NCBI GenBank assembly: GCA_964016885.1
Contig: OZ024766.1
Location: 13,516,001 to 13,580,000 of the forward strand
Origin: Eledone cirrhosa
Taxonomy: Eukaryota
DNA length: 64,000 bases
Reading direction: 5' to 3'
Positions 15,850 through 44,929 of this stretch are shown here, piece by piece. Each line of letters begins with the position of its first letter. Positions within the stretch are counted from its first letter, which is position 1. The position numbers and the translations under genes are program-made. The notes beneath the pieces were generated by a model, which had not been told where the DNA came from, ran no database searches, and was given only the letters and a program-made list of their open reading frames with translations.

Positions 15850-16954
<1,105 letters not shown>

Positions 16955-18688: not shown

Positions 18689-19287
18689 AAATACGGGAAA
18701 AATTAGTCATAAATATTTTAATTATAAAACGGAATAAATTAATGAAAGAAACGTAAAACAGATAAAAATTGTTGAAATATCTTGAAAATATAAAATATAG
18801 AAGAAAGAGACAGGAATTGATTGAGTTTGAAGTAAATTAATGAATGAACGAAAGTAGGTGGGGCAGGAAGAGGAAATAAAGACATTACAGTCTCGCAGTG
18901 AATGGTATTTTTTAGAGTAAGAATTATTTTATTCCTGGTTGTATAATTAACATTACAAATTATACTTAGACGAATAATGTGCTGTAGTAAATATATATAT
19001 ATATATATATATCATGTCCGAACAGCAAGTACAGTCTCACAGTGAATAGTAAGGATTAGGAGAAGGATTATTTTATTCCTGGTTGTATAAATAACATCAC
19101 AAATATCACAAATATGAAATAGATTTTAAAAAATACATACGTATATATATATATATATATATACACCAGGTCCGAAAAAAATATAGAGAAAGTACAGGTT
19201 CGCAGTGAATATCTCAAGAATTATTTTATTCCTAGTTTTGTGAATAACATTACAAATTATACTTAGACCAAGAATGTAGTGTAGTCA

Positions 19288-19290
<3 letters not shown>
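18689..19290 (+). repeat. Right copy of the direct duplication flanking the zinc-finger gene
   Basis: Matches 13310-14695 apart from the RTE insertion and TA tract lengths. Confidence 0.85.
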
Positions 19291-19318
<28 letters not shown>

Positions 19319-19335
19319 AATATGTGTATATATTT

Positions 19336-22300: not shown

Positions 22301-23030
22301 GTATTTGCATCACAAAATTCAAGAAGTCTCACTCCTTCTTCATTTCTTGAGCCGTAACCGTGCCCACAATGTACCCCAGTGTAACCATCCTGGAGCTGTC
22401 CAACATGACCATTGAAGTCTCCTGCTAGCATAACGATGTCTCCGTCCTCTGTCATTGCGGTTGTTTGTAAAAGTTGCTCGTAAAAGCAGTCTTTCTTATC
22501 TTTGCCTAGGCCTGCTTGGGGAGCATAGGCTCAGATGATTGTCAGTAGTCTCCTGCCTACAACTAATCTAAGCTTAATTATTCGATTACTAACTCGAACT
22601 ACCTCTATTGTCTTATTGATCCATCTCTCAGCCATGAAAATGCCTACTCCCCCTAACCCACCAATCTTACCTACCCAGAAAAGCTTATAACTAAGTGTTT
22701 GCCTACGACTAGTCTCGCAGAGGCACCTCTCCATCTCACCTCTTGCACGCAGCACACATCCACATGCCTTCTCTCCAGCATCTCCGCTATTTCAGCAGAT
22801 CTACCTCTCAGAGTGCCAACATTAAGTGTTGCAACTCTGAGATGCGACGTCTTCATATTTTGTTGTTGTTCCTATTTGTTGCTGTGCTGATAAGCGTGTT
22901 GGCATTGATACACTGGTTGGATGCCCTTCCTAACACCAGCGTCACTTTACAGCATTGACTGGGTGCTTTTCTTTGTGCCACCAGCACTAGAGAGGATGTC
23001 TTACTAGACTCAAGGGCCCTCTCTACCTCT
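19336..23030 (-). mobile_element. Near-full-length decayed RTE LINE (APE endonuclease + RT) with an internal 80-bp x7 tandem array
   Basis: LRVATLNVGT, VQEVRW, GDFNGHVG, NYRGIKL, AFVDLEKAFD, ELLYADD and RWYGHV motifs; (CAT)n tail at 19336; frameshifts. Confidence 0.96.
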
Positions 23031-23267
23031 CCATTTTACAACATGGTCATAAGAAACAAAACAAAAAAAAACACTTATTGACATGACACGCACACACACA
23101 CACACACACCAACACTCGTGCATAGAAACTACAAACACACACACCACACACACACCAACACTCATTCATGCATACAAACACACACACCACTCACACACAC
23201 ATATATATATATATTACCAGCAGTACTGATACAAAATCAAAATCATGTCAACTATTGACTTTTCCCA

Positions 23268-24229
23268 TGGTGGTGGTGGTGGTGGATGGTGTCAGTGATG
23301 GTGATGGTGGTGGTGGTGGTAGTGGGGGAGGTGGTGGATGGTGTCAGTGATGGTGATGGTGGTGGATGGTGGATGGTGACTGATGGTGGCGATGGTGGTG
23401 GATGGTGCTAGTGATGGTGTCAGTGATGGTGGTGCTGGTGGATGGTGCTATTGATGGTGGCGGTGGTAGTAGTGGTGGTGATGAGGGTGGTGGATGGTGG
23501 TGATGGCGGTGGTGGTGGATGGTGTCAGTAATGATGGTGGTGGATGGTGCTAGTGATGGTGGCGGTGGTAGTAGTGGTGGTGATGAGGGTGGTGGATGGT
23601 GGTGATGGCGGTGGTGGTGGATGGTGTCAGTAATGATGGTGGTGGTGGTGGATGGTGCTAGTGATGGTGGCGGTGGTAGTAGTGGTGGTGATGAGGGTGG
23701 TGGATGGTGGTGATGGCGGTGGTGGTGGATGGTATCAGTAATGATGGTGGTGGATGGTGCTAGTGATGGTGGCGGTGGTAGTAGTGGTGGTGATGAGGGT
23801 GGTGGATGGTGGTGATGGCGGTGGTGGTGGATGGTGTCAGTAATGATGGTGGTGGTGGTGGATGGTGCTAGTGATGGTGGCGGTGGTAGTAGTGGTGGTG
23901 ATGAGGGTGGTGGATGGTGGTGATGGCGGTGGTGCTGGACGGTGCCAGTGATGGTGGTGGTTGTGGTGGTGGATGGTGCCAGGGATGGTGGTTGTGGTGG
24001 TGGTGAAGGTGGTGGATGGTGTCAGTATGGTGATGGTGGTGGCAGTTGTTGTTGCTGTAGTTGTTGTTGTAGTTGCTGTTGTTGTTTTTGATGCTGCTGC
24101 TGCCGTTGTTGTTGTTCTTCATTTCACTGAAGCTGCAGACAATGGTGCTGTTGCTGTTATTGTAGTCACATATATATAAATACATACATACACACACATT
24201 CAACACAGACAATGGTGTTGTTGCTGTTG

Positions 24230-24260
<31 letters not shown>

Positions 24261-24300
24261 CGTTGTTGCTGTTCTTCATTTCACCGATGCTGTTGCTGTT
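23268..24300. repeat. (GGT/GAT)n and (GCT/GTT)n low-complexity tract
   Basis: Triplet repeats with a ~115-bp higher-order unit. Confidence 0.93.
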
Positions 24301-24307
24301 ATTATAG

Positions 24308-24349
<42 letters not shown>

Positions 24350-25847
24350 TTGTAACACCCACGTCCCGTAGGGCCTACATAGGGTTAACCGCCAATAGTT
24401 TCAAGCAGCGTCTTTACATGCATACCCATTCTTTTCGTTACCCTCTAAGAAGGAATATGACGTCACTTTCAGCTTATATCTGGAGTCTAAAAGACAACCA
24501 CACCCAATATAAGTTACACTGGGAGATCCTAGCTAGGGCTAGATCGTATAACGGAAATAAAAGACCATGTGACCTCTGCGCCGCTGAGGCCCTGGAAATA
24601 CTCTACGCCACAGACCACATCTTAAACAAAAAATCTGAGGCAATTTCGGCTTGTAAACATAAATTGCACAAAACTTTCCTGTATTACAGCCCCACATTAT
24701 ACCCTAATGGATAGTACGATCTATACGCGGATATTTTACGTCTTGATGTGGGAGCTAAGTATATGTTTTGTTTATTCCTTTACTTATTTGCATAGGTAAG
24801 TATATATTACCCGTATGTTTTGTGAAGGTATGTATACCTTCTCGTACGTATATTTGACTGTTACGGCGTATAATCTTTACATATTCTGGTATTTAGGGTT
24901 TGGTTATGTGTATATGGGAGTTTTGCGTCTGCGTGAGTATGCAGGTTCGTACGTATGGTGGGTGTGTGTATATGTGTACTTCTTGTTTTAGTTGACTTAC
25001 GTCTCCGAACCTTCGTGTATTTATTTGTAGGTATGTGTGTGCACTTGTTATATACGTATTTATTTACTTATATACGTTTATATAATTATTTATTTATTTG
25101 TACACAAGCATACACACGTACACATATTTATATGTGCGTGGTTTTGTATACCTATGGTAAGGTTTTGCGTATGCTTGTGTATGTACGTATCTGTTTGCGC
25201 GTATGTATTTATTTGTTTCTATTACTTCTGTATTGTATTTATTTACTTTGTTCTTAACTCTGTAGCGGAGATTCATTCGGTCTCCTAGTTAGAATTTTAG
25301 TCTACAACTTCTGCTATACCATTTACGTGGTTTTGTCTTTGCGTGCTATTGTTCTCCACGCTCCACATATGACGTATTATCTTCGTTTTTTCCGTTCATT
25401 GCCAGAGAACGTCTCTATGAACCACCTAAGAGAACATTAGTCTACGACCTCTTTTATACCATTTACGTGGTTTTGTCTTTGCGTGCTATTGTTCTCCACG
25501 CTCCACATATGACTTATTATCTTCGTTTTTCGTTCATTGCCAGAGAACGTCTCTATGCACCACTTAGAGAACATTAGTCTACGACCTCTTTTATACCATA
25601 AACGTGGTTCTGTCTTTGCGCGTAATTGTTTTTCACCGCTCCTATTAATGATGTATTATTCGTTTTTCCCCGTTCTTTGCCAGCGAACGTCACCATGAAC
25701 CAAAGTATCGTCTTCCTGTCTTCCTCCGGTTGCAACGTTTTTTGAAATATCCAGTACTGCGTTTACAGATTGACTTTGTTAGTTTCAGAAGATCCCGTTA
25801 AGGGTGAAAGCAGCGATTCTTTGCTTAAACTTTAATCTGTTATTTTA

Positions 25848-25850
<3 letters not shown>
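24350..25850 (+). mobile_element. Penelope-like element 3' part (GIY-YIG endonuclease C-half + 3' pLTR)
   Basis: YIGLTANSFKQR...HTHSF...TSLSAYIWSLKD...WEIL...CDLCAAEALEIL...LNKKSE...CKH; flanked by (TA)n; ~139-bp x3 tandem repeat at 25310-25700; hammerhead-like motif near the end. Confidence 0.88.
25781..25831 (+). ncRNA. Hammerhead-like ribozyme (variant core CAGAAGA)
   Basis: AGTTT-CAGAAGA-TCCC GTTAA GGGT-GAAA GCA...TGC TT-AAACT; stems I, II and III can pair; U4>A deviation. Confidence 0.5.
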
Positions 25851-25878
<28 letters not shown>

Positions 25879-25879
<1 letters not shown>

Positions 25880-28727
25880 CATCATCATCATCATTTTACG
25901 TCCGCTTTTCCCTGCTTGCAAGGGTGGGACGGGTCTTATTCAGCACAGCATCTCTCCACTCGTCACGGTCCCTCGTCATCTCCACCGTGAGCTTCAATGA
26001 TCTGAGGTCTGTTCTCACCACCTCCGCCCATGTTTTTCGTGGTCTACCTCTACCACATCTTCCTTCAACTGGCATTTCCTGGCACTTCTTCACCCATCGG
26101 TCATCCTCCATGCGCATCACATGTCCATACCACCTCAGTCTCCACTCCCGTACACTACATTCTATCCCTCTCAGACACAGTTTCTCTCTCAACACATTTA
26201 TGCTGGGTCGTTCACGCACATTTACACTGCACATCCAACGGAGCATGCTTGCCTCATTTCTCTCCAGCCGTCGCATATCTTCTGCGGTAGCTGCCCATGT
26301 CTCACTACCATGCAGCATCGCGCTCCTCACACAGGCATCATACAACCGGCCTTTCGTACGCAGGGAGAAACCCTTCTTCGTCAACAGAGGAAGCAGCTCC
26401 CTAAACTTCTTCCAACCCGTCCTTATTCTAGATACTATGGCCTCGGAACACCCTCCTCCCATGCTAATCTGATCTCCTAGGTACCGGAAGCTATCCACCA
26501 CTTCTATAGCGCCCTCTCGCATTTGAAAAATGTGTCTATCAATGCGACTTCTACTGTCTAATTTCCCTGTACATCTACTGCATACATATTTCTCCCTACC
26601 TGTTAGTTTGCCTGCTATCCCGCTACATCTCTTGTGTACCCAGGACCTACATTGTGTGCATTTTATAGAATTTAAGCCAGTTCCTTTTCTGCATATCGAA
26701 CATGGCCATTTCCCTGACGGAATCAGGGTTTTGTCCTCTTTTCTACTCATCAACACTTTTGTCTTAGCTAGATTTACTCTCAGTCCTCTTGCTTCCAACT
26801 GCTGTTTCCATAGCCGGAATTTATTCTCTAGCTCCTCTACTGATTCTGCCATAAGAGCCAGATCGTCAGCATAGAGAAGTTCCCATGGACAGCCAGTCTT
26901 AAACTCCTCTGTTATGGCTTGGAGGACTATAATGAACAAGAGCGGGCTGAGGACCGAACCCTGATGTACTCCTACTTGTATCTGGAATTCCTCACTAAAC
27001 TCCATTCCTACCCTGACTTTACTGAGAGTACCTCTGTACAAAGTTTGCACTGTCCTTAGAAGCCATTCCTCAACACCCAGCTTCGTTAGGGACCACCAGA
27101 TGACAGATCAGGGTACCCTATCAAAGGCCTTCTCTAGGTCAACAAAGGCTAAGTATAGTGGCTTATTCTTCTCTAAGAACCTCTCTTGCATTTGTCTCAC
27201 CAAGAAGAGGGCATCTGTTGTACTCTTCCCAGGCAGAAAACCAAACTGCATCTCATCTAGTTTGACCCTTTCTCTAATTAGTTGTGCTAAAATCCTTTCT
27301 GCCACTTTCATAACCTGATCTATCAGTTTTATACCCCTATAATTGCTCCTCTCCAAAGCATCCCCTTTACCTTTGTAGCAATTTATGAGAATACTGCTGC
27401 ACCAGTCTTTGGGTATGACACCACCATATATAGCCTGATTGATTATGCGTGCAACCAGTTTAGTGCCTACGTCCCCTGATGCCTTCAGCATCTCAGCAAC
27501 TATTCCCGATGGTCCGGACGCCTTACCATTTTTCATTTCCCTAATCGCCTCTTGGACCCTATATTCGTCAATCTCAATAGCTGGTCCCTCTGTCGGATCT
27601 ACCAAGGGTAATTTCTCTCTCTCCCATTCGTTCTCCACATTCATCAGTCTCTCATAATGACATTTCCAGGCCTCCTTTTTCTGGTCATTCGTGACACTAA
27701 GTACACCGGCATCATCCCGGACACATTTATCACCAACAACATCCTGATTTGCATTGACACACTGCCTTGCAATGTGGAACACCGCACGCCTCTGATCTTC
27801 CCGTCGCAGAACATTGGCAAACCTCCTACTCTCTGCCTCCCTGCGTGCTAAGTACACCTGATGTCTAGCTTCTCTCTTAGTGGCTGTATATTCTTCCCTA
27901 CTCCCACCCTTATTCCAAGCCTTCCATGCTAGTCTTTTGTCTCTAATAGCCTTATCTACACTGCTGTTCCACCACCAGGTCACTCTCTGTCTGGTTGGAG
28001 CTCTGCTCCAGCCACAGGTTTCATCAGTAACCTTCAGCAAGTTGTCACGTAAGAACTTCCAGTTATTATCTATGTCATACGTCTCTAAATCGTCTTCTTT
28101 TTCGTCATATACATCTTGAAGGGCTTTCCTAAATTTGAATTTTAGTGAAAGGTCTTTTAGCTTCCAGACCTTTCTTCTCCACACCTTCCTATATGTCTCA
28201 TTCCATCTCTTGCTTACTGAGATATCACTAACAACTAACCTATGCTGTGGGGTACATTCTTCCCCAGGGTATGCCTTGGTATTAGACACTATCTGCCTGT
28301 CCCGCTGCCTAACTAGCAGGAAGTCAATCTGGCTTATGTGCTCACCAGATTTGTAGGTTATTAGGTGATTGGCAGGTTTCTGGAAGTTTGTGTTGCAAAT
28401 AGTCAATGTACTTGCATCACAAAATTCAAGAAGTCTCACTCCTTCTTCATTTCTTGAACCGTAACCGTGCCCACCATGTACCCCAGTGTAACCATCCTGG
28501 AGCTGTCCAACATGACCATTGAAGTCTCCTGCTAGCATAACGATGTCTCCGTCCTCTGTCATTGTGGTTGTTTGCAAAAGTTGCTCATAAAAGCAGTCTT
28601 TCTCATCTTTGCCTAGGCCTGCTTGGGGAGCATAGACCGAGATGATTGTCAGTAGTCTCCTACCTACAACTAATCTAAGCTTAATTATTCGATTACTAAC
28701 TCGAACTACCTCTATTGTGTTATTGAT

Positions 28728-28730
<3 letters not shown>
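25879..28730 (-). mobile_element. RTE LINE, 5'-truncated, nearly intact ORF (APE-RT-PHD-like finger)
   Basis: ORFs 27108..28577 and 25896..27050 are separated by an in-frame stop; (CAT)n tail; same subfamily as 19336-23030. Confidence 0.97.
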
Positions 28731-28809
<79 letters not shown>

Positions 28810-28871
28810 ATATATATATATATATATATATAATATATAAGAACAAAAGATGGTTAAAAGAGTTCCATGTA

Positions 28872-28938
28872 TTTTATTATGCGCATTTCAAAAACAAATA
28901 TCATCATGCAATAATATTTGTGTTTTCATCAGATAAAA
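28872..28938 (-). ncRNA. Minimal type-I hammerhead ribozyme
   Basis: Minus strand TTTTAT-CTGATGA-AAACACAAATATTATTGCATGATGATATTTGTTTTT-GAAA T GCGC A TA-ATAAAA; palindromic stem-III loop. Confidence 0.85.
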
Positions 28939-29153
28939 GAGGAAGACATGATATGAAGGTTAAAAAACACTTGTGGATAGTGCAGTTTTAAATCAACATA
29001 TGAAAAGTAGTTTTAGATTGATGTGCGATATTGGGAAAAATATTTTATTTTGAGGGTGGGGTGGGGGTTTGGAAAGGATGAAAAAGAGGAGGAGATGAGA
29101 GTAAAAAGTGGAGAGGGAGAAGTATAATGAGGAAGGATGAGATAGGAGGAGAG

Positions 29154-29281
29154 ATGGGTGATAGAGAGAGAGAGAGAGATAGCTTTTATAACTGAGAAAG
29201 ATATATTGTTTTACATAAACAATATATGTAAAACAATATATCTTTCTCAGTTATAAAAGCTATCTCTCTCTATCACCCATC
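29154..29281. repeat. Near-perfect foldback (~55-60-bp arms)
   Basis: GATGGGTGATAGAG...GCTTTTATAACTGAGAAAGATATATTGTTTTACATA / TATGTAAAACAATATATCTTTCTCAGTTATAAAAGC...CTATCACCCATC. Confidence 0.92.
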
Positions 29282-29730
29282 AGATTTTTTTATGTATCCT
29301 TGGAGTCTTTTGAGTTCTAACTTCCTTTATATTTCCTTACTGTTTTTATAATATAATTAAGTAGTTAATCTTATTTCTTATTTCACTTCGTTAATCTTAT
29401 TTCTTGTTTCACTTCTTTCACTTAGATATATTTACGCTATATTTCTCCATTAAAACTTATTTCTTCATTCATTCTGACTATATCCACTATCACTATGTAT
29501 AATCGTTCTTTCTTTCCTCTTCTCTCTTTTCTTTTTTTCTCTTTCCCTTACATATCATCTTCTTCCAACAGTTTAATTTAAATAAACCGTTATCTTCTCA
29601 ACTTTTCGGACACTCACTCATAACTTTGTATCACCCTCAATAAAATATTATCTCCACTATCCAGGAAGCTCCAACCGTTAAGGTTGTTTTTTTTCCTGGT
29701 ATGTCAATATTTATTTATAAAACAAATCTG

Positions 29731-29796
29731 TATTTTATCTGATGAAAACGCACCATAATTTGCCTTGGTTGCCCTTGAAATATGTATAATAAAATA
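29731..29796 (+). ncRNA. Minimal type-I hammerhead ribozyme
   Basis: TATTTTAT-CTGATGA-stem II-GAAA T ATGT A TA-ATAAAATA; perfect 8-bp stem I. Confidence 0.8.
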
Positions 29797-29867
29797 AATA
29801 TGGTTTTATAAATATAGTTTCCATTTATTAATATATTGTATAAATATATATATATAAATATATACGC

Positions 29868-29899
<32 letters not shown>

Positions 29900-29928
29900 T
29901 TATATAAATATATATATATATATTTCGA

Positions 29929-29986
29929 ATACCTGTTGATGTCACCGGATTCATACGGAACCCGGTCATTGAAATGATCATAGTAT
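29929..29986 (+). ncRNA. Degenerate minimal hammerhead ribozyme (A6>U)
   Basis: ATAC-CTGTTGA-TGTCACCGGATTCATACGGAACCCGGTCATT-GAAA T GATC A TA-GTAT. Confidence 0.55.
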
Positions 29987-30333
29987 AATAAACCTTTCAA
30001 GGATTTACACAAATCCAGCCTCCTGTCATTTCATTATAATATTTAACTCCGTAATAGCACCACCAACTACAAAAACAAAGACGGTTGAACTGCTTTACGT
30101 TGAGTACTCTCTATATTATTGCATTACGATTGACTATACGGAATAGATACAGTGGTGAACCTCAAACCTGAATATATATATATATATATATATATTAGAA
30201 AGTGGGGGTTTTTTTTACAAAATGAAAAATAACCGAGGTGTCCTACACGAGTGGAAGTATAAAGAAAAAGGGATGAAATCGAAAATGCAACTGAAGTCTT
30301 ATTTTTTTTAAAAATATATATATTTATTTGGTT

Positions 30334-30371
30334 CCTTTACCGGTTTCGCAGTTCTTCTGCTTTTCAAAAGG
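30334..30371 (-). ncRNA. Minimal hammerhead ribozyme, U3-A8 variant (inverted pLTR copy)
   Basis: Exact reverse complement of 31888-31925. Confidence 0.75.
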
Positions 30372-31887
30372 TGAGTTGAGATGGAGGGTCTGTGGTTTTT
30401 CTCACATCTGGTTGGTCTCTAAATGTTACTTGTTTTATATGGAAAAAGTGGCTCGAAAACCAGGTTTTTCGAGAAGTAATTTGATTGGTTTGTCAATAAT
30501 TATAATAAATTTCGTGCCAGTTCGCATTACAATAGTTCTTCAAATAAGAGAGGGGGGGGGGGGTTGTCACAGGTTGTTTTTTCATATATGAGTGTTTGAA
30601 TTTCTTTTTACTTGAAAAAATGAGGCTCACGAAGGCTTTTTTTTTGGTTGGTTATAAATGAAATTTGGCTGTCACGTGGCTGTTACGAGATCCAACCACG
30701 AGACAGATACCACTAAGTGCACATCTAGACATTTGCGCAAGTAATAAGACACCCAAATTCCAAGTCTTCCCATTTTACCTTTGCGCTAACAATACAACAG
30801 AACAAATGCGAATAAATAAGGAAAATATGTTTATTCAAAAATATAGACCAACATTAAATAAGGTTTAATATACATTATGTCAACACCACAATATGACATA
30901 CACACACACACATAACACCTTCTACTTTAGAAAATAAAAACCCGAACTAAATAAACCTTAAACATACGTTTGCACTGGCAATACAACAGCAAACACGAAA
31001 AAGTCAGGAAAATATGTTCATTCAAAAATATTCCTACTAAAGGAATAATTTTCCTACACACACACACAATATATATATATATATATATTCTCTTCATCTT
31101 AACATGCTAACCATACTCCCACACACATAACACCCATACACACACATAACAACCCCCACACCTACAACACCCTCCCCATTTCTACTAATAGAACCACTTT
31201 CCTACACACATATATATATACACACACACAAAATATATATTCTCTCTATCTAACATACTCGCACACACACACATAACACCCATATACACACACACACAAC
31301 TCCCTCCCCCATCTCTACTAATAGAATCATCTTCCAATACACACATACACACACACACACATATACACACACACAAGCACACAAATAAACACATATCTTC
31401 AGTCTCAATAGAAAATCTGAACTCTAACATCTGAACTCTGACAGCTGGCCATATTCACTGAACCAGAACATTTCTCCCAATCCCTTTTCCCTTGACCACT
31501 ATCTCTCCATTGTCATAACATTCACTATAAAGACTACAGAATAGTTTTCCAAATAAGGGCGCAAAAATGTAATGAAAACTTGTTCATGTGACAGCCAAAT
31601 TTCATTTATAACCAACCAAAAAAAAGCCTTCGTGAGCCTCATTTTTTCAAGTAAAAAGAAATTCAAACACTCATATATGAAAAAACAACCTGTGACAACC
31701 CCCCCCCTCTCTTATTTGAAGAACTATTGTAACGCGAACTGGCGCGCAATTTATTATAATTATTGACAAACCAATCAAATTACTTCTCGAAAAACCTGGT
31801 TTTCGAGCCACTTTTTCCATATAAAACAAGTAACATTTAGAGACCAACCAGATGTGAGAAAAACCACAGACCCTCCATCTCAACTCA

Positions 31888-31925
31888 CCTTTTGAAAAGC
31901 AGAAGAACTGCGAAACCGGTAAAGG
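31888..31925 (+). ncRNA. Minimal hammerhead ribozyme, U3-A8 variant
   Basis: CCTT-TTGAAAA-GCAG AAGAA CTGC-GAAA CCGG TA-AAGG. Confidence 0.75.
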
Positions 31926-33399
31926 AACCAAATAAATATATATATTTTTTAAAAAAATAAGACTTCAGTTGCATTTTCGATTTCATCCCTTTTTCTTTAT
32001 ATATATATATATACATATACATAGATACACATATGTAGATATACGTGTGTGTGTGTATATATATTTTCATATATATATATATACATATACATGTATACAG
32101 GGCTTCGTTTTCCTTTAAAATGTGAGGAGGACAAACCAACATTTGTTGGTCCTTAAAGGGACATGTTAGTATTACTTATAGTCCTTTCCCGGATCCTATC
32201 ACATGATTAACATTTTACACTAATTAAATTGGATAACCCATATATATATATATGTGTGTGTGTGTGTGCGTGTATATATGTATCTGCCTGACATATATAT
32301 ACTGGTTACAGACACACATACACATCTATATATATATATGTAGTTGTAGTTCCTGTCTGTTTGTTTGTTCACAAACTCCCCCTATGGTTTTGGAGATAGA
32401 CCCCCCCCCCCCGCCCATAACCATATATACTCTGAAACTACATTGCCCAGGGTACTTGACTAAGTATATTTCATTTTAATCAAACGGTTCCCCGGGGGTT
32501 CAAAACCCCGCTGAAAATGTTTTCTCTTTGATTTAAATGATGCCTATTCACAAAATTTCAGCAAATTTCAATAATATTAAGACACCCTAATGGGGGTTAA
32601 ACCCCCTATAGTGAAAATGTTGGGCAATAAATGGTAATCTTGGTGCCTTTCCCGGACCCTATCACATGAGTAACATTTTACACTAATTAAATTTTATATA
32701 TTCCAATGAAGTTCAGATATTAAAAAAGTAAGTTTAAAAAATTTTATTATATAAAAAAAAAAAAAAATGTTCAATTTTTAGCAAATGGGCACCTATCTGT
32801 TAGGTGACAATTGCAGTTTGAGGTGTTATTCCGTGCAGCTTCCACACTGCTGTTTTGTACACTGCTATAAGTGGGTTGTGATTCGTGCCCGTTGAGGTTT
32901 TGCTGCGGCGTGCTTGTATGCGTTTGCGGTTGTGATACTGTGATGTGTTTATGTTTAGAATTTGGTGCTATGTTGCGCATAGGTGGGGCGGTCTCCCTGG
33001 AGGTATTTCTGTGGTTGATCTTGCGTATGTGGGATTCTATATTTGCAGCCGTAGAGTATGAGAGTTTTATAGTTTTTCTATTGAGGATTTTATGATATCT
33101 GTGTGATATAGGGAAGTGTTTAGCTATTAGTTTAAAAAACGTAGAAGGCAGTCTAGTTTTTACAGAGCAGTTGAAGATTGGATTGAACCACAGGTATTTT
33201 CTTTCTCTAATTCTTCTATAGTTTCCAGGGTTTACATTATTCGTGTTTGGACCACCTACTCTAGGTGCTACGTGCCTACCCCTATGTCTAGTCCTGTTAC
33301 CTCTATTTTTATGTGAGCGGTTGGTGTCAGTGTTAGTGGGTTTGTTTGAGTTGTCCTTATCCGTTTTAAACTGTAACTTTTCTTTGTGTCCGGCCCTAT

Positions 33400-35655
33400 G
33401 TAATGCTGCGTTATAATAGTTAGCATGCTATGTATAATAGTTAGCATGCTATGTATAATAGTTAGCATGCTATGTATAATAGTTAGCATGCTATGTTATA
33501 ATAGTTAGCATGCTATGTATAATAGTTAGCATGCTATGTAATGCTGCGTTATAATAGTTAGCATGCTATGTATAATAGTTAGCATGCTATGTTATAATAG
33601 TTAGCATGCTATGTATAATAGTTAGCATGCTATGTAATGCCGCGTTATAATAGTTAGCATGCTATGTATAATAGTTAGCATGCTATGTTATAATAGTTAG
33701 CATGCTATGTATAATAGTTAGCATGCTATGTTATAATAGTTAGCATGCTATGTATAATAGTTAGCATGCTATGTTATAATAGTTAGCATGCTATGTATAA
33801 TAGTTAGCATGCTATGTTATAATAGTTAGCATGCTATGTATAATAGTTAGCATGCTATGTTATAATAGTTAGCATGCTATGTATAATAGTTAGCATGCTA
33901 TGTAATGCTGCGTTATAATAGTTAGCATGCTATGTATAATAGTTAGCATGCTATGTAATGCTGCGTTATAATAGTTAGCATGCTATGTATAATAGTTAGC
34001 ATGCTATGTTATAATAGTTAGCATGCTATGTATAATAGTTAGCATGCTATGTATAATAGTTAGCATGCTATGTATAATAGTTAGCATGCTATGTAATGCC
34101 GCGTTATAATAGTTAGCATGCTATGTATAATAGTTAGCATGCTATGTATAATAGTTAGCATGCTATGTAATGCCGCGTTATAATAGTTAGCATGCTATGT
34201 ATAATAGTTAGCATGCTATGTTATAATAGTTAGCATGCTATGTATAATAGTTAGCATGCTATGTATAATAGTTAGCATGCTATGTATAATAGTTAGCATG
34301 CTATGTAATGCCGCGTTATAATAGTTAGCATGCTATGTATAATAGTTAGCATGCTATGTAATGCCGCGTTATAATAGTTAGCATGCTATGTATAATAGTT
34401 AGCATGCTATGTATAATAGTTAGCATGCTATGTAATGCCGCGTTATAATAGTTAGCATGCTATGTATAATAGTTAGCATGCTATGTATAATAGTTAGCAT
34501 GCTATGTAATGCCGCGTTATAATAGTTAGCATGCTATGTATAATAGTTAGCATGCTATGTTATAATAGTTAGCATGCTATGTATAATAGTTAGCATGCTA
34601 TGTATAATAGTTAGCATGCTATGTATAATAGTTAGCATGCTATGTTATAATAGTTAGCATGCTATGTAATGTCGCATTATAATAGTTAGCATGCTATGTA
34701 TAATAGTTAGCATGCTATGTATAATAGTTAGCATGCTATGTTATAATAGTTAGCATGCTATGTATAATAGTTAGCATGCTATGTTATAATAGTTAGCATG
34801 CTATGTATAATAGTTAGCATGCTATGTTATAATAGTTAGCATGCTATGTATAATAGTTAGCATGCTATGTTATAATAGTTAGCATGCTATGTATAATAGT
34901 TAGCATGCTATGTTATAATAGTTAGCATGCTATGTAATGCCGCGTTATAATAGTTAGCATGCTATGTATAATAGTTAGCATGCTATGTAATGCCGCGTTA
35001 TAATAGTTAGCATGCTATGTATAATAGTTAGCATGCTATGTTATAATAGTTAGCATGCTATGTATAATAGTTAGCATGCTATGTTATAATAGTTAGCATG
35101 CTATGTATAATAGTTAGCATGCTATGTATAATAGTTAGCATGCTATGTATAATAGTTAGCATGCTATGTTATAATAGTTAGCATGCTATGTAATGTCGCA
35201 TTATAATAGTTAGCATGCTATGTATAATAGTTAGCATGCTATGTATAATAGTTAGCATGCTATGTTATAATAGTTAGCATGCTATGTATAATAGTTAGCA
35301 TGCTATGTTATAATAGTTAGCATGCTATGTATAATAGTTAGCATGCTATGTTATAATAGTTAGCATGCTATGTATAATAGTTAGCATGCTATGTTATAAT
35401 AGTTAGCATGCTATGTATAATAGTTAGCATGCTATGTTATAATAGTTAGCATGCTATGTAATGCCGCGTTATAATAGTTAGCATGCTATGTATAATAGTT
35501 AGCATGCTATGTAATGCCGCGTTATAATAGTTAGCATGCTATGTATAATAGTTAGCATGCTATGTTATAATAGTTAGCATGCTATGTATAATAGTTAGCA
35601 TGCTATGTTATAATAGTTAGCATGCTATGTAATGCCGCGTTATAATAGTTAGCCT
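33400..35655. repeat. Mixed 21/22/32-bp minisatellite containing the palindrome TAGCATGCTA
   Basis: Units TATAATAGTTAGCATGCTATG(T) and TAATGCCGCGTTATAATAGTTAGCATGCTATG. Confidence 0.97.
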
Positions 35656-36981
35656 GCTCATTAAACATGTCTAGGTTTGAGGATAAGCGGGATATTCTAA
35701 GGGGTATACTACGTGCTACTGAATTCTTTATGTAGATTGTGTGCTGTAAATAACCCCATGACGTCAGTGATTTACGCTGAATCGTTCGATACCATTGTGA
35801 TATCGAAGCTGTTTATCCTATCTTTTCTTACCCAATAGCTATTTTCAAATTTTATGATAGTCCTTCTAGCAGCTATTATTATTTCAATTTCATCAGGGGT
35901 AAGATCGGAGTTATTTTGGGCAAATATAAGTGCTTTATCTAGGGTGGCTGGGGATATGGACGCGTAGTAATCGTTTATATCGAATTGTATAAAGATACAT
36001 GTTTCTCTATTTCTTATTTTACTGAACCATTATATCGCCTCGTTAGTGTTACCCCATAAATTGATTTCTAGTTTACCCTTTATTTGTGCAATTACCCTAT
36101 CTAGAATATTCTTGCTAATTTTACCTATATCTGACTTAGATGGGCATATTAATCTGATAGTAGGATTTGCTTCAAAATTATTTTTGTAATCCATAAGGTT
36201 AAATGTAGGGTTGCATGGGGTTAGAGGCTCGGTTCTATCGGATATTCCGAGTTTATTTACTATCCTGGTGAGTGTGGATTCATTTGTTTTTTTGTATTTT
36301 TTGTGTAGTTCACGCTGAATGAAATTATTATATGTGTTAAGGTCCATAGAATATACGTTTGATGTTTTGTCTGCCTTTACTATGATACCGTTGGTGTCTT
36401 TTAGGTTTTTTAGTAGTGTGTTGATGTCATTTGGTAACTTGTGGTGTGTTCTTTTTTTGAATTTAGTTCCACTTATCATATTCATAAGGTCCAGCTCGAA
36501 GGCATCGAGTGTGGGGTTGTTTGGAGGGTTTTTCCAGGATTTGAATCCGTAATTCTCCTTAGAAAATTCACTTGTGTTAATAGCTGGTCCTTTGTCGAAG
36601 TGGTAAGCCTTCCATCGGACCCTACGGATGAAATCATTAGTCCGTTGTATCATGCCTAGTGTATAGTCCCTATTTGTAGGTATAGGTATGTTTTTAAATG
36701 ACATTCCTATGCGGTGCTTTTCCATGTTGTTGCCGTGTGTTAATGATGTTGCTCAACCAGGTGGGAGCTATGTATACGGGATAACAAATTATTGTTATAG
36801 GTAGTCCAGTTAGGGTACTCCGAGTAGTGGATAGTATTAACGCATGGCTAAGTTTGACTCAACAAGACCTTTCCATAGTGATGCTGCGAGTACACGGTGA
36901 TTTCTATGTAGAATACACTTGGAGTAATAATAAATCAAGAAAGAAAAGTGACATGGTTTGCTATAAAATAAGGGCTTTATT

Positions 36982-37098
36982 CACATTGCTGACAATTGTT
37001 TCTTTGAACTGGTAGGTCTAGAGATCGCTACCCGCCTGTTTCTGCGTCAATCGATCACCAATACTTTGTTATAACCAGTCTATTCATCAGAACATGCG
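36982..37098 (-). ncRNA. Hammerhead ribozyme with extended stem II in the Penelope 5' pLTR
   Basis: Minus strand CGCATGTT-CTGATGA-ATAGACTGGT...ACCAGTTCAAA-GAAAC AATT GTC-AGCAATGTG. Confidence 0.75.
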
Positions 37099-37953
37099 AG
37101 ATTGAAGGGAATACACAGGCATGGCTTCTATATATAGTAGTGGCATTAAATCAGAACAATAATAACAATACTAACAATACCAACAGTACTCAAATAAATT
37201 AGCTAGACCGTAAATAGTTAAAATAATCACAACATCAATCTAAGTAAGGAATAGAGTATACTGATGACTTTAGCATGTAAAATGAGCTGATATGAAGCAG
37301 ATGTATGAAATTGACATGTAAAAGCTGTCATGGGTTGTATTATATATAGTGTAGAGATAACCTGGGGCTTGAAACAATGGACCATTTACTTTATTGTAGG
37401 TTTGCTGACCGTAAGAATTATTTATTATCTGACAGATAAAATATTTTCATTGTAGTGAGGATGGAAATTTTTATGTGGTGTAAAGCGGATTCATTATTTA
37501 AGTGGTCTATATTAGATGAAGGGATTGTTAGTTCGAATCATGGGGTTGTTTAGCTTTCACAGCATCAATAACAAAACATGCATGGATAAGACAACACTAA
37601 CAGCAATAGCATTATAGTAGGTAAGTTAATACAGAGGTTAAGGAAGCAAGGTATATATAGAGAGAACATGATGACTACTATTACGGATACATTGGGGTGT
37701 TCATTATAACAACAGGAGGAAGGTGATATTTCAAGGACTGTGGTAGTAGTCAAATAATATACTTGGAATTAAGTTCATCTGTGGAGAATCAAGGATGAGA
37801 AGAGATATATTTATGGGTTAAGATATTTGCAGACATTACTGTGGTATAGAATTAAGGAGGCTAGAAGCTGTTTAAAGAATATTATAGTTCTGCGGTGGTC
37901 TGTGTAAGAGTGCGGATTTCATATGTTGAATGGTAAGTTATGTTCGTTCGAAT

Positions 37954-38020
<67 letters not shown>

Positions 38021-38488
38021 TCTCTCTTGTTTCTCTCTCATTTCTCTCCTATTTCTCTCACCTCCCCATATATAATTATTATTATTTGGGCTACCTCTAT
38101 TCTCCCCCCACCTCTATCTTTCTCTCTCTCTGTTTTCTCTTCATTTCTTATTTTCTCTCCGTCTCCTCCCCAACTGTCCTTAACACTATAACTAAATAAT
38201 TACAGTACACCCTCCCTCCTAAATCTCTCAATTTGTATGATGAATTATTATTATTCATCTGTTGCCTCAGCTGCCTCTCTTTTTTCACCTCCTCACTATC
38301 TCTCTCTCCCCTATCTCTCTCTATTTCTCTGTTTTTCTTTACATACATTTCTTCTTTTTCTCTGTCTTTCTTTTTAACTGTGCTTAACACTTAATATTTG
38401 TAAACATCTCACTACCAAACCAGCTTACATAACGGTTGGTCAATATTTATGGTACGTCAAAATTATTTATAAAACTGTTTATATATTG

Positions 38489-38554
38489 TATTTTATCTGA
38501 AGAAGGCATGCCATATTTTTAATATGGTATCCCCGAAATATGTATAATGAAATA
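38489..38554 (+). ncRNA. Minimal type-I hammerhead ribozyme in a solo pLTR (~38020-38685)
   Basis: TATTTTAT-CTGAAGA-AGGCATGCCATATT TTT AATATGGTATCCCC-GAAA T ATGT A TA-ATGAAATA; downstream flank matches 29790-29840. Confidence 0.82.
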
Positions 38555-38681
38555 AATATGGTTTTATAAATATAGTTTCCATTTGTTTAATATCGTATAT
38601 CTACTCCAAAACTTGTCGAGTGCTTTATATCAGTTATAAAATATTTACTTGTTGTAACCCAACAATTTTATATAAAACTTT

Positions 38682-38722
<41 letters not shown>

Positions 38723-38898
38723 AAATAAAATGAATCACTAGAGTTGATTTGGCTTTGTTCCAGTCATCCATCCATACAAATTTTATGAAGGTATTTCAGC
38801 TCCACAATGCATTTACTTTGTTATTCTCCTACCATGCTGACTCTGTCTCTGTCTATTTTTCCATCAAAGGCTACAGGCCATGACTGTCTATTATTATT

Positions 38899-39088
38899 GA
38901 GTGGATTGGCAGTATCGGTAGAGGGTCGGACGCCATGCTTTGACGCATAGAGTTACGGCCCTTGCCATTCTGAGTTCAAATCCCGCCGAGGTTAACTTTG
39001 CCTTTCATCCTTACGGGGTCGATAAAATAAAGTACCAGTAATGCACTGGAATAATTGCTGGCCTTGTGCCAAAAGTAGAAACAATTAT
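38899..39088 (+). mobile_element. tRNA-headed SINE with a Nin/Deu-like central domain
   Basis: A-box-like TGGCAGTATCGG, B-box GAGTTCAAATCC, CCTTTCATCCTTACGGGGTCGATAAAATAAAGTACCAG. Confidence 0.85.
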
Positions 39089-39124
39089 TGATGTATTCTA
39101 TCGGCTACTTTGCCATGCGGCGAC

Positions 39125-39389: not shown

Positions 39390-42300
39390 GAATCACTAGA
39401 GTTGATTTGGCTTCGTTCCAGTTTCCATCTTGACGACGATCCTCTCTCCCTACCTCACACCCACCCCCTCACACCACCATAGCCTATTCGACCAATCAAA
39501 CCTCAGCATGCCATTTCTTTTGCTACTACTACCTAACTAACTCTCTCCTCCCCTGTCCCAGCCCAACACAGCCTGCCATTATCCCACCACCACTGTTCTT
39601 CTAGCCCTGAATTTTCCTACCGTTATGGATGGATGAGCTGAGAATAAATTTGAGCAACTCTGAATTAATAGATGAAATATGAATCTGCGAGCTACCAAGC
39701 ACCCATGTGAAGCGCCCATCCAGAGACCCTTCCCTACGAGTGTCGACAAATGCCCAAAACTCCGAGTTGGTACCATCAATGTAGGCTCAATGAAAGGAAG
39801 AGCAGGAGTAATCGTAGAAATGCTAGAGCGAAAGGAAATTGATGTATGCTGTGTGCAAGAGACTAGATGGAGAGGAGAGTCTGCTAGAGTCCTTGTAGGA
39901 AAAAGTCGGTGCTACAAATTTTTCTGAGTGGGAAATGACGATGGGATGGGTGGTGTAGGTATACCATTAGCTGACAAGTGGGTAGATAAAGTAATCTCAG
40001 TGTACAGGGTAAATGCAAGAATCATTAAACTCAGACTAGTCCTGAATAAAACAATTACCACAATAATATCAGCTTACGCACCCCAATCGGGGTTGCCAGA
40101 CGAACTTAAGGATAGGTTTTACGAGTCCCTAATGCACACTACTGCTCTAACAAACGACAATGACTTCCTAATCATCGCAAGAGATTTTAACGGACAGGTA
40201 GGTAAACACTGCGACGGCTTCAATAGAGTCCATGGAGGCCACGGGGTTGGCACAAGAAATGAGGAAGGATTCAGACTTCTAGAATTCTGCGACGCCAATG
40301 ACATGTCGATATGTAACACAAACTTCAAAAGACCCGACAACCACCTGATCACCTCTAGATCAGGGGAGCACTATAGTCAGATAGATTTTTTCCTCATCAG
40401 AGGACGTGACAGATGGACGGTCATAAACACAAAAGCCTTCCCTAGTGAGGTATGTACATCCCAACATAGCTTAGTTTTCAGCGACCTCACGGTCAGAACT
40501 AGATGAACCTGGAAACAGAGGCCAACCTGGAGAAGAAAGATCTGGAAGCTGAAAGACCCCTCAACCAGTAACAGATTTAAAGATATTTTACTCAACGCCT
40601 ACGACAGTAAAGAAGAACAGATAGAGACATTCAATGAGGAAGAGAACTGGGAGTTCCTAAAAAATAACTTACTAGAGGCGACGGATGAGGTCTGTGGCTG
40701 GAGTAAGACCTCAAGCAGGAGGAGAATGACTTGGTGGTGGAACAATAAGGTAGATGAGGCAGTTAAGGCCAAGAGACAGGCATGGAAAGAATGGAAGAAC
40801 GGGGGGAGCAGGGTAAATTACATAGAGAACAAGAGGGAAGCTAGGCGACAAGTATACTTAGCTAGGAGGGAAGCAGAGGATAGAAAATTCAAGCATGTTT
40901 TGCAACGTGAGGACCAGAAACAGGAGGTGTTCAAGATTGCGAGGCAGTGTGTCAGAGAGAATTGTGATGTCATTGGAGAGAAGTGTATCCGGAATGATAA
41001 AGGTGAGCTTGCCCTCACAAGTGCTGAGACGAAAGATGCATGGAAGAGTCATTATGATAGATTACTAAATGAGGAGAATGCATGGGAATAAGAGACCCTA
41101 CCCCAAGTAGACCCTATAGAGGGGCCAGCAGTACAAGTCAGCAGCAGCGTAGTAAGTAAGGCAATCAAAGATATGAAGATGGGAAAGGCAACCGGTCCAT
41201 CGGGTATAGCTGCTGAGATGCTGAAGGCATCTGGGTCTGTAGGTCACACTATAACCACACGTATTGTTAACCAGGTAATACTAGAAGGTATCATACCAAA
41301 AGATTGGTGCAGTAGCATCATTGTCAACTGCTACAAAGGTAAAGGTGATGCACTAGATAGAGGAAACTATAGAGGTATAAAGCTGATGGACCAGGTCATG
41401 AAAGTAACAGAAAGAGTTATAGCACAGTTGATTAGGGACCGGGTGAAACTAGATGAGATGCAATTTGGGTTTGTGCCAGGAAGAGGCACCACTGATGCCC
41501 TCATAAAGGCGATGCACTAGATAGAGGAAACTATAGAGGTATAAAGCTGATGGACCAGGTCATGAAAGTAACAGAAAGAGTTATAGCACAGTTGATTAGG
41601 GACCAGGTGAAACTAGACGAGATGCAATTTGGGTTTGTACCAGGAAGAGGCACCACTGATGCCCTCTTCCTTGTGAGGCAGTTACAGGAAAAAGTACCTA
41701 GCTAAAAGTAAGCCACTCTACCTGGCATTTGTCGACCTTGAGAAAGCCTTTGACAGAGTTCCACGTGCTGTAATCTGATGGGCTCTTAGAAAACTAGGAG
41801 TAGATGAATGGCTTGTGAAAGCGGTACAAGCCATGTATAGGGGAGCAGTCAGCAAAGTTAGGATTAGCAATGAGTATAGCGAGGAATTTAGCATACAGGT
41901 TGGGGTCCACCAGGGCTCTGTTCTTAGCCCCCTCCTGTTCATCATAGTCATGCAGGCAATAACGGAGGAGTTTAAGACCGGATGCCCATGGGAACTCCTG
42001 TATGCTGATGACCTCGCACTTATAGCTGAATCTATGGTAGAGCTAGAGAAGAAATTCGAAACTTTGAAGCAGGGACTAGAAAGAAAGGGTCTCAAAGTCA
42101 ACATGATAAAGACTCAGGTCCTTGTAAGTAGACGAGAAAACAGAACCCAGATCCCCTCAGGGAAATGGCCTTGCTCAGTATGTAGGAAAGGTGTAGGTAG
42201 GAACTCGATTCTCTGCCCCAAATGCAAACAATGGGTACACAAGAGATGTAGTGGGATCTCAGGAAGCTTAATTAAGAATGTAGGCTTCACATGCAGCAGC

Positions 42301-43274
42301 TGTGCTGGGACAGCACGCAGCAAAAAGCCACAGGAAACAAGTACCACCAATCTCTCGGAGGGCTCTGTAGAAAGAGTAGACAGCTTCTGCTACCTAGGTG
42401 ACCGAATTAGCAGCGGAGGTGGGTGTTCAGAAAGTACAATAACTAGGGTAAGAACGGGATGGAAGAAGCTTAGGGAACTACTACCACTGCTAGCTGCAAA
42501 AGGCTTTTCCCTCAAAATGAAAGGCAGACTGTATGATGTGTGTATCCGAACAGCAATGTTGCATGGTAGTGAGACCTGGGTGCTGAAGGTGGAAGACTTA
42601 CGTAGATTAGAGAGAAACGAAGCCTGCATGCTCCGATGGATGTGTAACAGTAATATACGTGAACGACAAAGCATAAATGAATTGAGAGAGAGACTGAGCA
42701 TAAGAGGAATCAAATGCTGTGTGCAGGAGAGGCAGTTGCGTTGGTATGGACATGTGATGCGTATGAAGGATGACAGCTGCATAAAAAGGTGCAGAGCACT
42801 AGAAGTCGATGGAAACCGCGGAGTGGGGAGACCCAAGATGACCTGGGATGAGGTGGTAAAAACCGACCTTACCCAATTCCACCTCTCAAAGGCAATGACA
42901 CACGACCGTGACCTCTGGCGTCTCGCAGTAATACAGAGTACCCGACCTCCCATGGGTACAAGCTGAAGCATATAGACAATATGCGCCCACACCCTCCCCC
43001 CGCAAGGTGGTCGTGGAGGTGCCACGGCAAAAAAGCACCCAGCCCACACTGTAAAGTGGACGTGTAGGCAACACGAAAAAGCACCCAGCACTCACTGTAA
43101 ATGAGGTTGGTGTTAGGAAGGGCATCCAGCTGTAGAAATCAAGCCACATCAGTTCCTGTATGAGCAAAGCATAGTCAGCCGACCAGACACTGCCCACAAC
43201 AGGACAACCCGTCTAACCCATGCTAGCGTGGAAGAACGGACGTAAAACGGTGATGATGATGATGATGATGATGA
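39390..43274 (+). mobile_element. Near-full-length decayed RTE LINE (second subfamily)
   Basis: LRVGTINVGSM, VQETRW, SAYAPQ, NYRGIKL, YADD, PHD-like CxxC, RWYGHV; stops and frameshifts; 164-bp internal duplication at 41340-41667; (GAT)n tail; 5' boundary approximate. Confidence 0.96.
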
Positions 43275-44408: not shown

Positions 44409-44546
44409 AAGCTTGGCAGTCATGACCAGTAAAACCAGGTAGACACTTGTTGTTTGGACAGTGTCCATTTTTAGGGTTACAGTTTGCACTGTCCTTGCAT
44501 TTACAGGGATTTGAACAATGGACACCAAAATAACCAGCTTTACACA
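44409..44546 (-). CDS. Multi-EGF gene exon 7 in window (138 nt, phase 1-1)
   Basis: TTAACAG|...|GTTAGT; VCKAGYFGVHCSNPCKCKDSANCNPKNGHCPNNKCLPGFTGHDCQA. Confidence 0.9.
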
Positions 44547-44667
44547 CTGTTAAAATAAAACAAACAAGTAGAAATATCTAACATTACTTTACAAATATAT
44601 ACAGGGTGCAGCATAAATACTGTTACAAAATATCAAATGAGTTTAAGTCATAATATTAATTACTTTA

Positions 44668-44848
44668 TGCTTTGCAGCATAGAGTTACGGCCCTTTATGA
44701 TCTGAGTTCAAATCCCGCCCAGATTAACTTTGCCTTTCATCCTTACTGGGTCGATAAAATAAAGTACCAGTCACACACAGGGAGCGCTTTAATAGACCCA
44801 CCCCCCCACATTTCTGGCCTTATGCTTATATAAGAAACCAATAATAAT
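44668..44848 (+). mobile_element. Nin/Deu-like SINE copy
   Basis: GAGTTCAAATCCCGCC...CCTTTCATCCTTACTGGGTCGATAAAATAAAGTACCAG. Confidence 0.82.
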
Positions 44849-44929
44849 TACTTTATTATTGATCTGATTGCTCAAATATTAACCTAATACTATATACTAA
44901 CTGTTTTGGGGGTTATATAAGGATTCATT

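What the first reader, a model, noticed from the sequence alone, without database searches (positions are those of the whole stretch)
25781..38554. Cluster of eight candidate minimal hammerhead ribozymes in 13 kb
Seen: eight CUGANGA...GAAA...NUH-type folds with pairable stems I and II, at 25781+, 28872-, 29731+, 29929+, 30334-, 31888+, 36982- and 38489+. Stem III is mostly reduced to 1-2 bp with a palindromic loop (GCGC, GATC, CCGG, AATT). Established: Penelope-like elements carry minimal type-I hammerheads in their pLTRs, thought to cleave as dimers. Inference: several distinct Penelope or retrozyme families have accumulated in these (TA)n tracts, and any read-through transcript would meet self-cleaving motifs on both strands.
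Basis: partly seen in the sequence, partly recalled or inferred. Interest (0 to 1): 0.8.

Follow-up and report, generated by a model that had tools for sequence, protein, structure and literature searches.

The report
Retrotransposon hammerheads, one with altered core
The eight ribozyme-like folds are real and sit in the end repeats of common Penelope-type jumping genes that have piled up in AT microsatellites, which is known biology, but one family with about 20,000 copies carries a changed catalytic core that is predicted to weaken or stop self-cutting, so cutting is likely not needed for its spread.

Summary
All eight folds are present; a descriptor tuned on them finds 8 in the window against 0.01 in shuffles. 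They come from seven insertions of abundant Penelope-like elements nested in (TA)n tracts; two are the arms of one inverted insertion. Hydra-type ORFs are linked to 25781+ and 36982-, a Neptune/Nematis-type ORF to the 30334-/31888+ pair. Stem II covaries across subfamilies. The cluster is ordinary: four families alone give about 67,000 exact matches. Three cores deviate: U3-A8 (published covariation), A6U (a decayed window copy) and U4A at 25781. U4A is the family state: 19,868 matches against 214, also in older subfamilies whose loops differ; most apparent U4 matches are inversion junctions. Eight of 64 sampled copies begin exactly at stem I, seven with an extra G, the signature of a capped template. 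This family was likely copied from capped, uncut RNA, and its hammerhead is likely weakened. I could not read the main paper on PLE hammerhead variants, and cleavage and expression are untested. The read-through idea is unsupported.

The parts
24350..25855 (+). Family A: 5'-truncated Hydra-type PLE; GIY-YIG C-terminus to 24714, 3' UTR with 140-nt triplication, short tail, flanked by (TA)n
   Evidence: tandem 3,259-nt units with ORF in L171 and L239
25766..25839 (+). Hammerhead A: core CAGAAGA at 25786 (U4A, family-wide), U-U closing stem II, 5-bp stem III, bulged extended stem I; predicted cut after 25826; inferred transcription start at 25781
25859..28730 (-). Bystander: APE-RT LINE with PHD finger and (CAT)n tail inserted in the TA tract
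28872..28938 (-). Hammerhead C: CUGAUGA, 36-nt stem II, palindrome AUGCGCAU; predicted cut after 28878; in fragment about 28835-29217
29156..29285 (.). Near-perfect hairpin: inversion junction of the C-family fragment, joined to the B fragment
29731..29796 (+). Hammerhead B: CUGAUGA, 8-bp stem I, near-palindrome AUAUGUAU; predicted cut after 29788; in fragment about 29287-29845
29929..29986 (+). Hammerhead F: window copy has A6U (CUGUUGA) where the family has CUGAUGA; palindrome AUGAUCAU; fragment about 29922-30170; no ORF link found
30213..32001 (.). Family E: one head-to-head inverted insertion of a Neptune/Nematis-type PLE; left arm long tail, right arm short tail; last 59 aa of the endonuclease at 30689-30868 (+)
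30334..30371 (-). Hammerhead E, left arm: U3-A8 core UUGAAAA, G10.1-C11.1, palindrome ACCGGU
31888..31925 (+). Hammerhead E, right arm, same sequence
32771..37955 (-). Family G: broken Hydra-type PLE; 5' pLTR 37955 to about 36770, ORF from 36725 (RWK, DKT), middle replaced by a 21/22-nt satellite (33412-35631), linker CxCX5C, endonuclease missing
36982..37098 (-). Hammerhead G: CUGAUGA at 37090, 81-nt stem II, palindrome ACAAUUGU, GUC site; predicted cut after 36991
38489..38554 (+). Hammerhead D: CUGAAGA, sister subfamily of B, long tail to about 38690; fragment about 38022-38690

Best explanation
The eight folds are type-I hammerhead motifs in the terminal repeats of seven separate Penelope-like retrotransposon insertions nested in (TA)n tracts, likely copied there by target-primed reverse transcription of uncut RNA, and the family at 25781 carries a U4-to-A core change predicted to weaken or abolish cleavage. 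Shown: the motifs, family copy numbers, ORF links for families A, E and G, stem covariation, TA flanks, and inverted pairs with one long and one short tail. Inferred: the element protein nicks (TA)n and starts cDNA at one of two internal sites downstream of the hammerhead. Most cDNAs stop early, so short hammerhead-bearing pieces dominate. Two cDNAs, one primed on each target strand, join head to head by microhomology, which puts motifs on both strands. Each insertion leaves TA on its flanks, so the tract stays a target. The palindromic stem III (B to G) would allow cleavage only as a dimer of like copies. In family A the transcript is inferred to be capped at the first base of stem I, and the weakened core would spare the cap and the downstream start sites.
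For: 8 of 8 motifs against 0.01 in shuffles. Exact-match counts: A 19,868, B/D 36,044, E 6,310, F 4,560. ORFs: A, tandem units with RT, CxCX5C linker and GIY-YIG; E, RVT_1 E=1.6e-6 and GIY-YIG E=5e-6; G, 39% identical to the A ORF over 238 aa. Stem II of 11 B/C/D representatives: 55 of 66 cells Watson-Crick against 35.8 shuffled, 0 of 5000 shuffles reach it; 46 of 46 distinct copies keep CUGANGA, though the descriptor limited the core. 93 of 102 inverted pairs have one long and one short tail, 51 expected, matching the two RT starts of PMC11167929. A4: 19,868 against 214; 85 of 100 listed in older subfamilies whose N7 and loop 2 vary; no substitution at 25787 in contigs of 4 runs with 4 organism labels. 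Eight of 64 A copies start exactly at 25781-equivalent, 7 with a non-native G, p about 1e-4 to 4e-4. CUGA mutants have low activity in a mutational scan of another hammerhead (PMC9901934, passages).
Against: No cleavage or RNA data. No ORF link for F; B and C rest on one weak endonuclease hit each (34-37% identity); D is assigned only by similarity to B. None of 5 A loci examined had a complete ORF. The extra-G hot spot is sharp only in A, not in E, F or B/D. A natural U4C viroid core keeps enough activity in vivo (PMC3088659), and a U4C family occurs in this genome, so position 4 may be tolerant. Shuffle control for covariation ignores relatedness. No Rfam hit; monomer folds are not unusually stable. 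Two of the four runs give only one low-depth contig.
Confidence: 0.85

Rival explanations
1. Family A's A4 core is a tolerated, active variant, rescued by its extended stem I, stable stem III or by the element's protein.
For: Helices and the other core bases persist while N7, loop 2, loop 3 and the stem I bulge change between subfamilies. U4C works in a viroid (PMC3088659). The Anolis PLE hammerhead cleaves only with its protein (PMC11167929). A second family here has C4 in 4 of 4 diverged copies.
Against: All single and double CUGA mutants except the C3/G8 swap were low in PMC9901934. No 5' boundary fell on the predicted cut in family A (biased sample). Capped-start copies run through the site.
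Confidence: 0.3
2. Family A's hammerhead is a dead relic with no present role; its helices persist only because the lineage is young.
For: Many copies are 98-100% identical to the window copy. Mutations inside copies look neutral, including CpG sites.
Against: In 16 copies under 92% identity, upstream sequence differs at 14.7% of sites and the bulge at 25.9%, but stem Ib at 2.3% (set enriched for non-A4 copies, so only these regions are usable).
Confidence: 0.25
3. The cluster is a host-selected array that cuts read-through transcripts on both strands.
For: Local density (7 events in 13 kb) is above the genome mean; P about 1e-5 to 2e-3 for a single window. The segment is duplicated elsewhere on the contig.
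Against: A 3-Gb genome holds about 230,000 such windows and this one was picked after the fact. 43 of 143 control loci carry another family's hammerhead within 1.5 kb. One copy is decayed. Compatible in-cis partners are nearly absent.
Confidence: 0.03
4. Some families (F, perhaps B, C, D) are non-autonomous, retrozyme-like derivatives moved by PLE proteins.
For: No ORF within about 1.4 kb either side of F. Animal retrozymes are proposed to derive from pLTRs (10.64898/2026.07.22.740005, part 1 read).
Against: F, B and D show the same TA flanks and long/short tail pairs as ORF-bearing families. No short head-to-tail arrays were seen. Endonuclease remnants lie upstream of single B and C copies.
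Confidence: 0.15

Closest known systems
[quoted passage not shown]
   Same: Short palindromic helix III, long helix II, high copy number, mostly single truncated copies, opposite-strand pairs 100-700 nt apart, and the U3-A8 core reported for Schistosoma Cercyon.
   Different: Family A has a 5-bp stem III and A4; G has an 81-nt stem II; B, C, D and F have a pyrimidine-pyrimidine mismatch at the fourth stem II position.
Hydra clade of PLEs (Craig et al. 2021, PMC8557442), including Hydra-1_Obim
   Same: RWK/RWR and DKT motifs, CxCX5C linker, C-terminal GIY-YIG, (TA)n targets, inverted 5'-truncated copies, tail at one end; U-U closing of stem II in 14 of 26 Hydra rows of File S2.
   Different: All 26 Hydra rows in File S2 have a CUGA core; family A has CAGA. 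Its unit is 3,259 nt, above the usual under 3 kb.
Neptune/Nematis-type PLEs
   Same: Family E ORF has GLKF, DKG and a C-X4-C-X2-C linker before the GIY-YIG domain.
   Different: Neptune versus Nematis not resolved; no tree was built.
Poseidon element of Anolis, PAc (Frangieh et al. 2024, PMC11167929)
   Same: Two internal RT starts downstream of the hammerhead explain the tails; hammerhead mutants still insert in vitro; no RNA-seq ends at the cut site.
   Different: That is an in vitro result with engineered mutants; here a natural lineage with a changed core reached about 20,000 copies.
Natural hammerhead core variants (Perreault et al. 2011, PMC3088659)
   Same: U3-A8, U10.1-U11.1 and U4C are described there.
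   Different: U4A does not occur in the main text; Figure 5 itself could not be seen.

Membership tests
Type-I hammerhead ribozyme | Core C3 U4 G5 A6 N7 G8 A9 (or the 3-8 covariant) | tested here: met
   B, C, D, G canonical; E U3-A8; F canonical at family level, 100 of 100 listed
Type-I hammerhead ribozyme | U4 in family A (25781+) | tested here: not met
   A4 in 19,868 matches against 214 with another base
Type-I hammerhead ribozyme | GAAA, NUH site and three helices with stem I open | tested here: met
   8 of 8
Type-I hammerhead ribozyme | Covariation in helices | tested here: met
   B/C/D stem II 55 of 66 against 35.8; no formal count made for A, E, F, G
Type-I hammerhead ribozyme | Match to an Rfam hammerhead model | tested here: not met
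Type-I hammerhead ribozyme | Self-cleavage after H17 | not testable with these tools
Dimer-type PLE minimal hammerhead | Palindromic helix III, unstable as monomer, stable as self-duplex | tested here: met
   C, E, F, G duplex -6.4 to -10.5 kcal/mol; B and D only -2.2; A has a monomer hairpin (-1.9) and also a self-duplex (-12.9)
Dimer-type PLE minimal hammerhead | Lies in the pLTR of an RT/GIY-YIG element | tested here: inconclusive
   met for A, E, G; weak for B, C; not found for D directly or for F
Hydra clade PLE (A, G) | RWK motif, DKT motif, CxCX5C linker, C-terminal GIY-YIG | tested here: met
   G: RVRWKAY, ADKTS, CNCHLTDRC; A: RLRWRAF, SDKTG, CNCRNRVDC; G endonuclease seen in other loci
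Hydra clade PLE (A, G) | Insertion into (TA)n | tested here: met
Hydra clade PLE (A, G) | Canonical hammerhead | tested here: not met
   met for G, not for A (U4A)
Hydra clade PLE (A, G) | Placement in the RT phylogeny; absence of CCHH | not tested
   no reference set aligned
Neptune/Nematis PLE (E) | CX2-5CxxC linker between RT and C-terminal GIY-YIG | tested here: met
   KCGRSNCGTC; Pfam hits
Naiad/Chlamys PLE | N-terminal endonuclease | tested here: not met
   endonuclease is C-terminal in A, E, G
Non-LTR retrozyme | ORF-less head-to-tail tandem monomers each with a hammerhead | tested here: not met
   none in the window or among hammerhead positions in loci L001-L150

The most novel reading that the evidence does not exclude
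A Hydra-clade retrotransposon lineage has kept the whole hammerhead fold but broken its uridine turn (U4A), starts its capped RNA at the first base of stem I, and has spread to about 20,000 copies from linear, capped, uncut RNA. PLE hammerheads can thus be kept as a structural RNA element, and cleavage and circularisation are dispensable in vivo.
Probability: 0.4. Interest if true: 0.68.

Novelty: new variant of a known kind. Interest (0 to 1): 0.43.

Why it matters
The cluster itself is known biology. The open question is what PLE hammerheads do: release monomers, make circular templates, or little at all (PMC4209133, PMC8557442, PMC11167929). Family A is a natural experiment in one genome beside canonical families. 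If A4 is inactive, cleavage is dispensable for large-scale spread; if active, the core tolerates a change that mutational scans call harmful and that CUGA-based searches miss. The extra G at the start of stem I argues for a linear capped template in at least some insertions. The 93 of 102 long/short tail pairing gives genomic support to a two-start, two-strand insertion model.

Tried and rejected
Rfam scans gave no hammerhead match; miRNA hits are TA/CA repeats and one inversion hairpin. Strict and short-stem scans missed motifs. A 'U4 sister subfamily' of A (890 matches) was rejected: 27 of 28 distinct rows printed from those loci are head-to-head junctions at the palindrome TTC-A/T-GAA, and all 6 T-bearing loci among L209-L238 are junctions too, read by eye. 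A link between T4 and 5' truncation seen in 7 loci weakened on 20 more (15 of 20 have native upstream). The extra-G start was sought in E, F and B/D, 20 stretches each; E has a loose pile-up 30-43 nt upstream of the core without a clear G, the others none. I first took the ORFs for Naiads from memory; rejected because the endonuclease is C-terminal. No RNA holder was listed for 25580-25850; this says nothing on expression. No ORF found for F. Family C was not counted genome-wide. Exons of the EGF-repeat gene lie only at 44.4-59.9 kb, none beyond the cluster, so no intronic position was shown. Earlier scan notes: nothing. Searches for U4A or CAGAUGA hammerheads gave no relevant title (listings only). 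Lunse et al. 2017 on PLE hammerhead variants could not be read and may hold U4A. The organism looks octopus-like by recall; not tested.
Full report
Observation. A strict CUGANGA scan returned one; a scan allowing two core mismatches returned seven plus four weak two-mismatch hits elsewhere. A descriptor written after seeing them (one change at position 4 or 6, or U3-A8; stem I of 4 bp or more; palindromic or 3-bp stem III; stem II up to 95 nt) found exactly 8 in 64 kb, against a mean of 0.01 in 100 local dinucleotide shuffles. Rfam gave no hammerhead hit and none of 7 monomer folds beat shuffles. Four cores are canonical, three kinds deviate. 30334- and 31888+ are arms of one inverted insertion, so there are seven events.

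Families. Each motif belongs to a dispersed repeat in this 3.0-Gb genome. Exact pattern counts: A 19,868, B/D 36,044, E 6,310, F 4,560; G gave 2,649 first-look candidates; C was not counted. A follows a GIY-YIG C-terminus at 24350-24714 and forms 3,259-nt tandem units with an RT ORF elsewhere; none of 5 such loci was fully intact, the longest open stretch being 641 aa from the ATG. G lies in the 5' repeat of a related ORF (39% identity over 238 aa) whose middle is replaced by a satellite. Both carry the RWK/RWR, DKT and CxCX5C motifs that define the Hydra clade in PMC8557442 (section 11 and passages read; supplement files S1 and S2 read in part 2). E is the 3' end of an element with RVT_1 and GIY-YIG hits and a C-X4-C-X2-C linker, Neptune or Nematis type. 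B and C have one weak endonuclease hit upstream each; F has no ORF within about 1.4 kb.

Selection on the fold. Across 11 B/C/D representatives drawn from 46 distinct copies, six stem II positions form Watson-Crick pairs in 55 of 66 cells against 35.8 when partners are shuffled (0 of 5000), with A-U/G-C and C-G/U-A swaps and a mismatch at the fourth position in 10 of 11. The shuffle ignores relatedness.

Why they cluster and face both ways. Four families alone give 0.29 motifs per 12.9 kb. Five such events in one window have P of 1e-5 to 2e-3 depending on undercount, but the genome holds about 230,000 windows. In 143 control loci (451,731 bases; 7 loci of this region and its duplicates dropped) there were 26 hammerheads of other counted families against 8.1 expected, and 43 loci held at least one of any other family. 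Copies end in (TA)n, the known Hydra target. Of 102 head-to-head pairs, 93 have one long and one short tail, 51 expected if independent. This fits the two internal RT starts and two-strand priming shown for an Anolis element (PMC11167929, parts 1-2 of 4 read); tails at one end were already noted in PMC8557442. Part of the cluster is also duplicated at two other places on the contig at 96-99%.

The deviant cores. E is U3-A8 in 100 of 100 listed matches, a covariation already reported for Schistosoma PLEs (PMC4209133, parts 1-2 of 4 read). F's A6U is a decayed copy: 100 of 100 listed family matches have A6. A is different. A4 is in 19,868 matches against 214 with G, C or T. In older subfamilies with other loop 2 and N7 letters, 85 of 100 listed keep A4; the pattern fixed the other core bases, so their conservation is not shown by it. 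The 890 matches with T4 are mostly artefacts of structure: 27 of 28 distinct rows are inversion junctions at a palindrome centred on position 4. Contigs of four runs with four organism labels show no change at 25787; two of them give one low-depth contig each. All 26 Hydra rows in File S2 of PMC8557442 have CUGA, 14 with the same U-U closing pair as A. U4C is known from a viroid (PMC3088659, section 8 and passages; Figure 5 not seen). CUGA mutants were low in a pairwise scan of a type III hammerhead (PMC9901934, passages). I found no U4A report, but Lunse et al. 2017 could not be read.

Template of family A. I took 60 stretches in order from the first listed A4 matches (64 matches; six already held were left out). 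Fifty-four have native upstream sequence with T just before stem I; 8 start exactly at the first base of stem I, 7 of them with an extra G; 2 stop a few bases further up (p 1e-4 to 4e-4). An extra G marks a copied cap in L1 insertions (PMC11702581, one passage). The site resembles an initiator, a motif I recall rather than tested; Drosophila Penelope has an internal promoter (PMC2377424, passages). So the capped RNA likely begins at the hammerhead and was copied through the uncut site; a capped end cannot come from a circle. No boundary fell on the predicted cut, but that sample favoured copies with the core. The G signal was not clear in E, F or B/D.

Read-through idea. Self-duplexes of the stem III palindromes are stable for C, E, F, G (-6.4 to -10.5 kcal/mol) and weak for B and D (-2.2); mixed pairs on one strand are weaker than -3 except none, the only like pair being B with D, 8.8 kb apart. 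PLE hammerheads cleave slowly even as dimers (PMC4209133; review PMC6765202, passages). No host exon was shown to flank the cluster. The idea is unsupported.

Other papers seen: 10.64898/2026.07.22.740005 (part 1 of 5; its supplements are closed), PMC13282606 and PMC11014351 (passages, no bearing on U4A).

Verdict. The cluster is an ordinary pile-up of known PLE hammerheads (confidence 0.85). The new part is the U4A lineage with an inferred capped start at stem I, which makes the role of PLE hammerheads testable. New variant of a known kind; interest 0.43.

Noticed in passing
L101:823, L105:229, L177:8329, L220:1025: Another TA-flanked hammerhead family with U4C (CCGA core) in 4 of 4 diverged copies, with different loop 2; ORF link not checked.
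   Followed up: partly
L179-L208: Hot spot of head-to-head junctions at the palindrome centred on position 4 of hammerhead A, creating false canonical cores; most of 890 matches.
   Followed up: yes
window 33412-35631: 2.2-kb satellite of 21/22-nt units, apparently expanded from the G ORF itself and replacing about 110 codons.
   Followed up: partly
window 29156-29290: C-family fold-back junction joined directly to a B-family fragment; both have short tails, so the origin is unclear.
   Followed up: partly
window 19236-29326 and 20558-38955: Segmental duplicates at G000:C27 about 13.79 Mb and 14.91 Mb, 96-99% identical.
   Followed up: partly
window 25859-28730, 19300-22600, 39900-43000: APE-RT LINE copies with a PHD finger (Pfam hit on the 25896-27107 ORF); the first two have (CAT)n tails beside TA tracts.
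   Followed up: no
window 32080-32790: Unidentified element that cuts off the G endonuclease; two 53-nt internal repeats; no homologue in the loci held.
   Followed up: no
window 44410-59901 (-) and 15926-16954 (-): Exons of an EGF-repeat gene and a C2H2 zinc-finger ORF flank the region.
   Followed up: no
loci L001-L238: Further hammerhead families with palindromes CTAG, CTACGTAG (U3-A8 core), GTAC and others.
   Followed up: no
L247-L266 and L154-L169: T4 copies of family A are somewhat more often 5'-truncated near the core (11 of 27) than A4 copies (10 of 64); unexplained.
   Followed up: partly
window 38901-39100: A short repeat that recurs in many control loci next to PLE fragments; not identified.
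   Followed up: no
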